Positions 9,125 through 9,453 of a stretch of DNA of 13,555 bases are shown piece after piece. The notes below the pieces were generated by a model. That model made no database searches, was not told the origin of the DNA, and was given only the letters and a program-made list of their open reading frames with translations. How positions within the stretch are numbered: position 1 is the first letter of the stretch; every line of letters starts with the position of its first letter. Origin of the DNA: a virus (taxonomy: Duplodnaviria; Heunggongvirae; Uroviricota; Caudoviricetes). Where the stretch lies: IMG/VR virus record IMGVR_UViG_3300026224_000027, positions 1-13,555 of that record; one strand, written 5' to 3'. The position numbers and the translations under genes were made by a program.

Positions 9125-9312
9125 TATCAGATCCTCTTTTCAGTCCTCCAGCCTCAAAAAACTGACCACACAACTGACCACACATTTCGCTGAAGCTCGG
9201 CAAACAACAACGAACAGCAACAAACAAGAAAGCCAATTAAATCATTGTATATCAAACAAATACACAAACAATCACGAACACTCCCGAACTACAAAAAACA
9301 CTAAATGAGAAA

Positions 9313-9358
9313 ATACGGGTATTTCTCAGCCTTCACGCAGAAGGGCACCCCGAGTCGT
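9313..9358 (-). promoter_or_regulatory. TPP riboswitch (thiM leader thi-box), 5' portion only; truncated at island junction
   Basis: Minus strand reads ACGACTCGGGGTGCCCTTCTGCGTGAAGGCTGAGAAATACCCGTAT, matching the 5' half of the E. coli thiM aptamer as I recall it (P1-P3 and the CUGAGA J3-2). The expected continuation CACCUGAUCUGGAUAAUGCCAGCG is absent and replaced by unrelated sequence from 9312 downward. Confidence 0.6.
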
Positions 9359-9387
9359 TTGGTTGCGATGATGAATCGCAAAGGAGG

Positions 9388-9416
9388 ATGTTAATGTCCG
9401 GCGCGCGCGTTGTAAA
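9388..9416 (-). promoter_or_regulatory. Putative sigma70 promoter of thiM leader, now directed into the island
   Basis: Minus strand: -35 TTTACA (9416..9411), 17-bp spacer, -10 TAACAT (9393..9388), placed about 30 nt upstream of the aptamer start. Confidence 0.4.
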
Positions 9417-9453
9417 CGAGGAAAAACGGCAGTATTACAATAACGTTACGGAA

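What the first reader, a model, noticed from the sequence alone, without database searches (positions are those of the whole stretch)
9125..9420. Host thiM promoter is oriented to read through the truncated aptamer into the island integrase
A good sigma70-like promoter (TTTACA-17-TAACAT) on the minus strand sits upstream of the truncated aptamer, and int is on the same strand starting at 9124. Without the downstream riboswitch half no TPP-dependent structure can form, so host-driven, possibly thiamine-independent, transcription could enter int. This is a possible coupling of island integrase/excision expression to a host promoter.
Basis: inference. Interest (0 to 1): 0.55.

Follow-up and report, generated by a model that had tools for sequence, protein, structure and literature searches.

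The report
Host thiM promoter facing satellite integrase
A known type of phage satellite island (EcCI224-like) has inserted into the middle of the thiamine-sensing leader of the thiM gene, so the orphaned thiM promoter points into the island's integrase gene with no clear stop signal between them; this geometry is real, but it is most likely a side effect of where the island integrates, and the island itself is already catalogued.

Summary
Minus-strand TTTACA-17-TAACAT (9416-9388) is the orthologue of the E. coli K-12 thiM promoter. Published thiM numbering puts +1 at 9381. Host sequence then matches K-12 only to 9313 (+69). That stretch holds the P1 5' strand and the P2/P3 arm of the TPP aptamer but not P4/P5 (Rfam 19.7 bits; intact K-12 71.2 bits). 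From 9312 the DNA is the int-proximal arm of a phage-inducible chromosomal island (PICI). Its 14-bp att core AGAAATACCCGTAT is the one published for EcCI224 ("frmR-thiM"). The host is Escherichia ruysiae.

I found no canonical intrinsic terminator, the +70 to +257 leader is C-poor and so unlike a Rho loading site, and thiM leader transcription is not TPP-regulated even in the intact gene. Read-through into int (GTG 9124) is therefore plausible.

However, 9125-9312 is packed with recombination-site repeats, and int must be expressed before integration. The related EcCICFT073 has the same arm architecture but lies divergent from its host neighbour. Host-promoter drive is therefore most likely incidental and supplementary. 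No transcript data exist.

A side issue is that thiMD keeps only half a riboswitch and no consensus promoter.

The parts
9454..9726 (-). rcnR (host), the gene upstream of the thiM promoter. No terminator-like site lies between its stop codon and the promoter.
   Evidence: 90-aa ORF. Annotated as rcnR in matching E. coli records. Terminator scan found none.
9388..9416 (-). Host thiM promoter: -35 TTTACA (9416-9411), 17-nt spacer, -10 TAACAT (9393-9388). Inferred +1 at 9381.
   Evidence: Orthologous to K-12 TTTACA-17-TACCAT and Salmonella TTTACA-17-TATGCT. +1 derived from the thiM numbering in PMC5499598.
9363..9381 (-). 5'-terminal stem-loop of the thiM leader (UUGCGAU-ucauc-AUCGCAA).
   Evidence: Perfect 7-bp inverted repeat. 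Present in the folds. A different GC-rich hairpin occupies the same place in Salmonella.
9313..9362 (-). 5' part of the thiM TPP aptamer (P1 5' strand, P2, P3, J3-2, P2 3' strand). It ends at +69. P4/P5 and the P1 3' strand are absent.
   Evidence: Rfam TPP 19.7 bits against gathering 54.3. Intact K-12 control scores 71.2 bits. Identity to K-12 ends at 9313.
9313..9326 (-). att core AGAAATACCCGTAT, the crossover region; this copy is the attL copy.
   Evidence: Direct repeat at both island ends in E. coli L001 and L003. Identical to the published EcCI224 core.
9306..9328 (-). Core-type inverted repeat TGAGAAA-N9-TTTCTCA. In RNA it forms a weak hairpin (+54 to +76, -5.1 kcal/mol) followed by UUUAGUGUUUUUU.
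   Evidence: An analogous inverted repeat flanks the core of the cspD-clpS island.
9125..9312 (-). Island int-proximal (P) arm and int 5' leader. It contains: the conserved C'-side motif TTTCTCAtTTAGTGTT; 10-bp periodic repeats at 9289-9263; an IHF-like TAT-N4-TTGATA at 9262-9249; a candidate own promoter TTGTTT-16-TACAAT at 9271-9244 (8 of 12); 10-bp repeats at 9227-9201; and the SD AGAGGA at 9137-9132.
   Evidence: Alignment of 8 attL-int regions from 4 att sites. TRF. Relaxed promoter scan. Motif coordinates. The functions of these sites are inferred.
9161..9184 (-). Tandem 12-mers TGTGTGGTCAGT x2, probable arm-type Int binding sites. They lie 37-60 bp upstream of the int start.
   Evidence: TRF: period 12, 2.1 copies, 100%. 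Both copies change together in relatives: TGTGAGGTCAGT, GTGCGGTCAGT, GGTGTAGTTAAT. They are repeated in a 76-bp segment near the distal island end.
7904..9124 (-). int, a tyrosine recombinase of 406 aa with a GTG start.
   Evidence: Pfam Arm-DNA-bind_3 and Phage_integrase. 100% DNA identity to E. coli island copies over 8700-9311.
7053..7907 (-). DUF6387 gene overlapping the int stop by 4 bases; probably the same operon as int.
6725..6949 (-). alpA-family regulator / recombination directionality factor.
   Evidence: Pfam Phage_AlpA, 58.8 bits.
1..6724 (-). Remainder of the PICI: DUF4222, D5-type primase (3362-5194), ClpP-protease/capsid gene split into two ORFs (1345-2658 and 746-1324), DUF1441 (3-545). 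The island runs off the left end of the window.
   Evidence: 99% identical to E. coli SCU-123 island L003.

Best explanation
Region 9125-9420 is the attL junction of an EcCI224-type phage-inducible chromosomal island (PICI) that has recombined into the thiM TPP-riboswitch leader of an Escherichia ruysiae chromosome.

On the host side (9313-9420) lie the thiM promoter and the first 69 nt of its leader. On the island side (9125-9312) lies the P arm of the attachment site: a core-type inverted repeat, an IHF-like site, 10-bp repeats that may bind the AlpA-type directionality factor, and two tandem arm-type Int sites. The int ribosome-binding site follows.

All island genes run in the same direction as thiM, so RNA polymerase starting at the orphaned thiM promoter is aimed at int-DUF6387. 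It meets no canonical terminator and no Rho-favourable sequence. Some thiamine-independent read-through into int in the integrated state is therefore likely (inferred, not shown).

int must nevertheless have its own promoter in the arm. The best candidate is TTGTTT-16-TACAAT at 9271-9244. Int is needed before the island is joined to the host promoter, and sibling islands with the same arm work without a co-oriented host gene.

The host promoter is therefore most likely a passive, supplementary input. It arises as a by-product of an att site located between a promoter and its gene, and is not a dedicated control of excision.
For: Identity of the region:
- Promoter orthology and TSS.
- Break at 9313/9312, shown by comparison with the empty K-12 site.
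- Half aptamer.
- Same junction in 72 of 5426 complete E. coli genomes.
- Both island ends carry AGAAATACCCGTAT, the published EcCI224 core.
- PICI gene set.

Nothing obvious stops transcription:
- No terminator-like site.
- C-poor leader.
- thiM leader transcription is not TPP-controlled.

Arm architecture:
- Conserved across 8 attL regions at 4 att sites, with co-varying tandem 12-mers.

int can function independently of a host promoter:
- An EcCICFT073 int-attP plasmid integrates autonomously, and its int promoter is AlpA-independent.
- EcCICFT073 int is divergent from roxA, although its Int is 67% identical.
- Salmonella islands with 67-74% Int identity use the same thiM core and orientation. 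The geometry is therefore inherited together with the att site.
Against: - No transcript or reporter data exist for this or any related island.
- The island's own int promoter could not be pinned down. The candidates match only 8 of 12 positions and are not positionally conserved between the Escherichia and Salmonella islands.
- Three of the four att sites examined in this Int clade (thiM, smrA, clpS) place int downstream of, and co-oriented with, host promoter-side DNA. This could hint at selection for that orientation.
- thiM promoter strength is unknown.
Confidence: 0.55

Rival explanations
1. Functional coupling. The thiM promoter is a major, selected driver of int-DUF6387 expression in the integrated state. 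It keeps Int available so that excision depends only on helper-induced AlpA.
For: - Collinear geometry without a canonical terminator and a C-poor leader.
- The same orientation is kept in Escherichia and Salmonella islands with 67-100% Int identity.
- Sibling islands at cspD-clpS and abgR-smrA also place int just downstream of host promoter-side DNA.
- In EcCICFT073, int expression is AlpA-independent, i.e. constitutive.
Against: - Orientation is fixed by the att core, so its conservation within one att-site lineage carries no information.
- EcCICFT073, with the same arm architecture, is divergent from its host neighbour and integrates from a plasmid carrying only int-attP.
- Int must be made before integration.
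- Co-orientation is equally explained by avoidance of head-on or antisense transcription, and by letting island transcription reach the displaced host gene.
Confidence: 0.15
2. No meaningful read-through. Transcripts from the thiM promoter end at or soon after the junction, and int is expressed only from an island promoter.
For: - The attL core inverted repeat forms a hairpin at +54 to +76 followed by UUUAGUGUUUUUU, with a TransTermHP-style tail score of -4.2.
- The arm between the junction and int carries probable Int, IHF and RDF sites that could act as roadblocks.
- The leader is 257 nt long and untranslated.
Against: - The hairpin is only -5.1 kcal/mol, with 2 G-C pairs and a 9-nt loop. 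It fails the terminator scan.
- The U-run is not conserved in the Salmonella islands (GGGUUUAUAG).
- The C/G ratio of 0.25-0.6 argues against Rho loading.
Confidence: 0.3

Closest known systems
EcCI224, a Gram-negative PICI of E. coli Ecol_224 (Fillol-Salom et al. 2018, Table S1; attL/attR listed as rcnR_thiM.EcCI224 by Tommasini et al. 2023)
   Same: Identical 14-bp att core AGAAATACCCGTAT, the same rcnR('frmR')-thiM location, and the same attL sequence around the junction. It has the int-alpA-primase-capsid gene order. Island DNA is 92-100% identical to copies in 76 E. coli genomes.
   Different: The host here is E. ruysiae; its flank is about 90% identical to K-12. This copy lacks the HEPN-gene segment of the SCU-123 copy, and its capsid-protease gene is split. 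Neither paper contains the word 'riboswitch' or discusses the orphaned thiM promoter.
Helper-embedded PICIs (Tommasini, Mageeney & Williams 2023)
   Same: A PICI is inserted, co-oriented, inside a transcription unit without carrying a replacement for the interrupted sequence. The authors hypothesise that outside transcription continues into the integrated island and transcribes its integrase.
   Different: Their outside promoter is a helper-prophage late promoter, so the timing is linked to helper induction. Here it is a housekeeping promoter with no known link to the helper cycle. The interrupted target is an RNA leader, not a coding sequence.
EcCICFT073, the prototype E. coli PICI
   Same: Int is 67% identical. 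The arm layout is the same: core, TTAGTGTTTTTT, TAT-N4-TTGAT, CTTGTT repeats, tandem 12-mers about 25 bp before the start codon. alpA lies downstream of int.
   Different: It is integrated between roxA and phoQ with int divergent from roxA, so no host gene reads into int. Its int promoter was shown to be AlpA-independent, and int-attP is sufficient for integration.
mutS-integrating mobile element of Vibrio splendidus (Chu et al. 2017)
   Same: Integration near the 5' end of a host gene orphans the host promoter and start at one end of the element. Excision rejoins them.
   Different: That element supplies its own promoter and translation start for the displaced gene. Here no consensus promoter was found upstream of thiM at the distal island end.
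E. coli thiM TPP riboswitch (Rfam RF00059)
   Same: Nucleotides +1 to +69 of the leader are orthologous, including the CUGAGA...ACCC pyrimidine-sensor arm.
   Different: The pyrophosphate-sensor arm P4/P5, the P1 3' strand and the expression platform are missing from this end. In E. coli carriers they sit at the far end of the island, next to thiM.

Membership tests
TPP riboswitch aptamer (RF00059) | Complete aptamer reaching the Rfam gathering score (54.3 bits), with both sensor arms (P2/P3 and P4/P5) closed by P1 | tested here: not met
   No gathering-level hit in the window. The permissive search gives 19.7 bits, E 0.22, with the 3' half filled by non-homologous island sequence. The K-12 control scores 71.2 bits.
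Sigma70 promoter of thiM | -35/-10 hexamers with a 16-18 nt spacer at the position orthologous to the K-12 thiM promoter | tested here: met
   TTTACA-17-TAACAT, aligned to K-12 TTTACA-17-TACCAT and Salmonella TTTACA-17-TATGCT.
Sigma70 promoter of thiM | Mapped transcription start in this organism | not testable with these tools
   +1 is inferred only from the numbering in PMC5499598 (U152 of the AUG). No TSS data exist for E. ruysiae or for island-bearing strains.
Gram-negative PICI (EcCI224 type) | Specific att site with a direct repeat of the core at both ends | tested here: met
   The core AGAAATACCCGTAT is at 9326-9313 in the window (one end only; the island leaves the window). Both ends are seen in E. 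coli L001 and L003. It equals the published core.
Gram-negative PICI (EcCI224 type) | Unidirectional int - alpA - primase module, about 10-15 kb in size, with no full phage morphogenesis/lysis set | tested here: met
   Pfam: integrase, Phage_AlpA, D5 primase, and only a protease/capsid gene plus DUF1441. The equivalent island is about 11 kb in L003.
Gram-negative PICI (EcCI224 type) | Induction, excision and packaging by a helper phage | not testable with these tools
   Requires experiments. Shown only for relatives such as EcCICFT073.
Tyrosine-recombinase attL (core plus arm-type sites) | Inverted core-type repeats around the crossover, and direct arm-type repeats on both arms of attP | tested here: met
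   Inverted repeat TGAGAAA/TTTCTCA around the core. Tandem 12-mers recur in the distal arm and co-vary in relatives. Protein binding was not tested.
Intrinsic (Rho-independent) terminator between promoter and int | G+C-rich stem of at least 5 bp with a loop of 3-8, directly followed by a U tract | tested here: not met
   0 sites in 8900-9800. The best candidate is a 7-bp A/U-rich stem with a 9-nt loop, -5.1 kcal/mol.
Host-promoter-driven expression of a mobile-element integrase | A transcript continuous from the host +1 into int, and dependence of Int level or excision on the host promoter | not testable with these tools
   Only the geometry and the absence of blocks could be examined.

The most novel reading that the evidence does not exclude
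This integrase lineage may have specialised on a riboswitch aptamer as its att site in order to swap transcription units. The orphaned, thiamine-blind thiM promoter would permanently feed int-DUF6387. thiMD, left with half a riboswitch and no promoter, would become silent or dependent on island transcription, and would regain TPP control only when the island excises. This would be a reversible 'regulated gene integrity' switch acting on a regulatory RNA, not on a coding sequence. It might impose a need for external thiamine, because thiD is needed for de novo thiamine synthesis (established E. coli genetics, from my own knowledge).
Probability: 0.1. Interest if true: 0.6.

Novelty: new member of a known kind. 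Interest (0 to 1): 0.3.

Why it matters
If host read-through really feeds int, the excision competence of this satellite would depend partly on a housekeeping promoter. That would add a cis-acting host input to a life cycle thought to be controlled in trans by helper phages.

The insertion also shows that a conserved riboswitch core (CUGAGA...ACCC) can serve as an attachment site in the way tRNA genes do. Here no replacement sequence is provided, so carriers (about 1.3% of complete E. coli genomes, plus E. ruysiae and Salmonella) have thiMD cut off from its promoter and its TPP sensor. This gives a natural, testable case of riboswitch disruption by a mobile element.

On present evidence, the promoter-to-int geometry itself is an ordinary consequence of site choice.

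Tried and rejected
- Species-representative genomes. I searched with the Int protein and with the exact 24-nt attL junction. Context came instead from E. coli complete genomes and from contigs encoding Int homologues.
- Literature. A search for thiM + rcnR + integrase found no papers. A search for thiM + integrase + riboswitch + island found nothing relevant.
- The island's own int promoter. A relaxed hexamer scan gave TTGTTT-16-TACAAT in the Escherichia islands and TTTACG/TTTATC-16-(A/T)ATGAT in the Salmonella islands. These are offset by about 8 bp in the alignment, so no positionally conserved promoter can be claimed. The invariant TGAT block fits an IHF half-site at least as well.
- Junction hairpin as a terminator. 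I rejected it as a canonical terminator because of its weak stem and non-conserved U tract. It is better explained as the RNA image of the core-type inverted repeat.
- Long-range pairing in the 282-nt fold between UUUAGUG (9304-) and CACUAAA in int codons 5-7. I rejected it because L005 changes one side without compensation, and the whole-leader fold is not unusual (z -1.64).
- A complete aptamer at the distal island end. No TPP hit was found across the island and thiM in L001, so there is none.
- A consensus promoter for thiM at the distal end. None reaches 9 of 12; only 7-8 of 12 matches were found.

Full report
**What is at 9125-9420.**
All relevant features lie on the minus strand. rcnR ends at 9454. 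The only sigma70-like site in 8900-9800 follows: TTTACA (9416-9411), 17 nt, TAACAT (9393-9388). Taken alone, one hit is what shuffled sequence gives (1.1 expected). But the site aligns base for base with the K-12 rcnR-thiM intergenic region, which has TTTACA-17-TACCAT. Salmonella has TTTACA-17-TATGCT at the equivalent place. Bastet et al. number the thiM RBS as G142 and the AUG as U152 (PMC5499598). This is a TSS taken from a paper's numbering, not one mapped here.

**The truncated aptamer.**
The transcript would start with a 7-bp stem-loop (9381-9363). It would then run through the P1 5' strand, P2, P3 and J3-2 of the TPP aptamer. Identity to K-12 stops at 9313, which is +69. Rfam gives no gathering-level TPP hit in the window and 19.7 bits in a permissive search. 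The intact K-12 leader scores 71.2 bits. The pyrophosphate-sensor arm (P4/P5), the P1 3' strand and the expression platform are absent, so the truncated aptamer is real.

**What interrupts it.**
The following observations identify the inserted DNA.
- From 9312 leftwards the DNA is 99-100% identical to an island found between rcnR and thiM in E. coli. The junction-spanning query is covered in 72 of 5426 complete genomes, and the int-proximal part in 76.
- In E. coli TUM12357 and SCU-123 both ends can be read. The 14-bp direct repeat AGAAATACCCGTAT flanks an island of about 15 kb and about 11 kb respectively.
- This is exactly the att core listed for PICI EcCI224 ('frmR-thiM') in Table S1 of Fillol-Salom et al. 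2018. It is also listed as rcnR_thiM.EcCI224 by Tommasini et al. 2023.
- The window's island genes fit this identification. They are a tyrosine integrase (GTG 9124-7904), DUF6387, AlpA, DUF4222, a D5-type primase, a ClpP-protease/capsid gene and DUF1441.
- The host flank is only about 90% identical to K-12. Its exact RcnA and YehA proteins are named Escherichia ruysiae. A non-coli Escherichia therefore carries an island nearly identical to the E. coli copies.
- Neither PICI paper uses the word riboswitch.

**Anatomy of 9125-9312.**
I aligned eight attL-int regions. They comprise this window, an E. coli variant, three Salmonella islands at the same thiM core (Int 67-74% identical), and islands at abgR-smrA, cspD-clpS and roxA-phoQ (Int 66-67%). 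The alignment shows one shared layout:
- An inverted repeat around the core, TGAGAAA-N9-TTTCTCA, at 9328-9306.
- A conserved TTAGTGTT motif.
- 10-bp periodic repeats at 9289-9263.
- A TAT-N4-TTGAT block resembling an IHF half-site, at 9262-9249.
- A second set of about 10-bp CTTGTT-type repeats at 9227-9201.
- Two exact tandem 12-mers, TGTGTGGTCAGT, at 9184-9161.

The 12-mers change in both copies together in relatives: TGTGAGGTCAGT, GTGCGGTCAGT and GGTGTAGTTAAT. They also recur in a 76-bp segment near the distal end of the island. I read them as arm-type Int sites and the whole stretch as the P arm of attL. The protein assignments are inferences. The SD AGAGGA (9137-9132) and the GTG at 9124 follow.

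**Can the thiM promoter read into int?**
For:
- No terminator-like site exists in 8900-9800.
- The island leader (+70 to +257) contains 19 C against 53 G. Every 78-nt window from +41 into int has C/G below 0.9. This is the opposite of the C-rich, G-poor character of Rho loading sites (established knowledge).
- The whole leader does not fold unusually well (z -1.64).
- In the native gene, TPP does not lower transcription of fusions with 6-20 codons, and Rho termination requires codons 20-34. Polymerase therefore passes +69 regardless of thiamine even when the riboswitch is intact.

Against:
- The core inverted repeat makes a hairpin at +54 to +76 (-5.1 kcal/mol) followed by UUUAGUGUUUUUU. It is weak, with two G-C pairs and a 9-nt loop. 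The U run is replaced in the Salmonella islands.
- The arm is likely occupied by Int and accessory proteins.
- Promoter strength is unknown.

I estimate that some read-through is more likely than not.

**Does it matter?**
- Int has to be made from the incoming or excised island, where the DNA upstream of int is the distal island arm. That arm is preceded by terminator-like hairpins. An island promoter must therefore exist (inference).
- In EcCICFT073 a plasmid with only int-attP integrates, excision occurs spontaneously, and the int promoter is AlpA-independent. That island shares the arm architecture and has a 67% identical Int. Yet it sits with int divergent from the neighbouring roxA.
- The best local candidate promoter is TTGTTT-16-TACAAT at 9271-9244 (8 of 12). 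It is not positionally conserved in the Salmonella islands, so it remains a candidate only.
- The thiM, smrA and clpS islands all place int on the promoter side of a displaced host gene and co-oriented with it. Three of four sites is not significant. Co-orientation is also expected if head-on or antisense transcription is costly.
- Conservation of orientation among thiM-site islands simply follows from the shared att core.

**Comparison with known systems.**
- The element is a member of the published EcCI224 group of Gram-negative PICIs.
- Outside transcription running into a co-oriented PICI integrase has been proposed for helper-embedded PICIs.
- Orphaning of a host promoter by a 5'-proximal insertion is documented for the Vibrio mutS element.
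- Specific to this case are the identity of the orphaned promoter and the fact that the target is a riboswitch aptamer.

**The other end of the island (outside the window).**
- In E. coli carriers, thiM is preceded by the core, the 3' half of the aptamer and the expression platform.
- No full TPP hit is found there, and no site of 9 or more out of 12 promoter matches lies within about 500 bp.
- A terminator-like hairpin lies after the last island gene.
- The 3' half alone folds so that the SD region is largely unpaired.
- thiMD is thus cut off from its promoter and TPP sensor. Whether it is still expressed is unknown.

**Verdict.**
The island and its att site are already known, and the promoter-to-int relation is a new instance of a known kind of arrangement. 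Interest is 0.3.

Noticed in passing
L003 5560-6100 and L001 5050-5500 (distal island end in E. coli carriers; outside the window): The att site lies inside the TPP aptamer and the island brings no replacement. thiMD is left with only the 3' half of the riboswitch, and no consensus promoter lies within about 500 bp. A terminator-like hairpin follows the last island gene. The PICI papers that list this att site do not mention the riboswitch.
   Followed up: partly
window 1-9312 versus 9313-13555: Island DNA is 99-100% identical to E. coli copies, whereas the host flank is about 90% identical to K-12. The flank encodes proteins named Escherichia ruysiae. This points to recent transfer of the same satellite between Escherichia species.
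   Followed up: partly
window 746-2658 (-): The ClpP-protease/major-capsid fusion gene, a single 637-aa CDS in E. coli SCU-123, is split here into 437-aa and 192-aa ORFs. The two DNA stretches differ in length by one base, so this is a frameshift or a sequencing error.
   Followed up: partly
window about 2953-3099 versus L003 9500-10400: The SCU-123 copy carries an extra segment of about 0.9 kb with a plus-strand HEPN-domain gene, possibly a defence cargo. It is absent from the window's copy.
   Followed up: no
window 9161-9184; L005 about 2918-2941; L008 about 2418-2441; L006, L009 and L012 just upstream of int: The tandem 12-mers upstream of int change in both copies together between islands, tracking Int divergence. 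This is a clean example of arm-site/integrase co-variation.
   Followed up: yes
window 9417-9453 (-): No terminator-like structure separates the rcnR stop codon from the thiM promoter. Ni/Co-responsive rcnR transcription might therefore also run into the thiM leader and onward.
   Followed up: no
window 9363-9381 (-); L004 2743-2765: The thiM leader begins with a stem-loop whose sequence differs completely between Escherichia (UUGCGAU/AUCGCAA) and Salmonella (CCCCGC/GCGGGG). Its position is kept. It lies outside the Rfam aptamer model and may be a 5'-end stabiliser.
   Followed up: partly
L009 2180-2330; L006 2780-2830; L012 2180-2270: Sibling PICIs at cspD-clpS and abgR-smrA also sit between host promoter-like hexamers and the displaced gene, with int on the promoter side. 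EcCICFT073 sits about 70 bp upstream of the roxA start codon in the opposite orientation.
   Followed up: partly
window 5795-6715 (-): This 306-aa ORF has odd composition and no counterpart in E. coli annotations of the same DNA. Those annotations place small Icd-like and YlcI/YnfO genes there instead, so the ORF is probably not a real gene.
   Followed up: no
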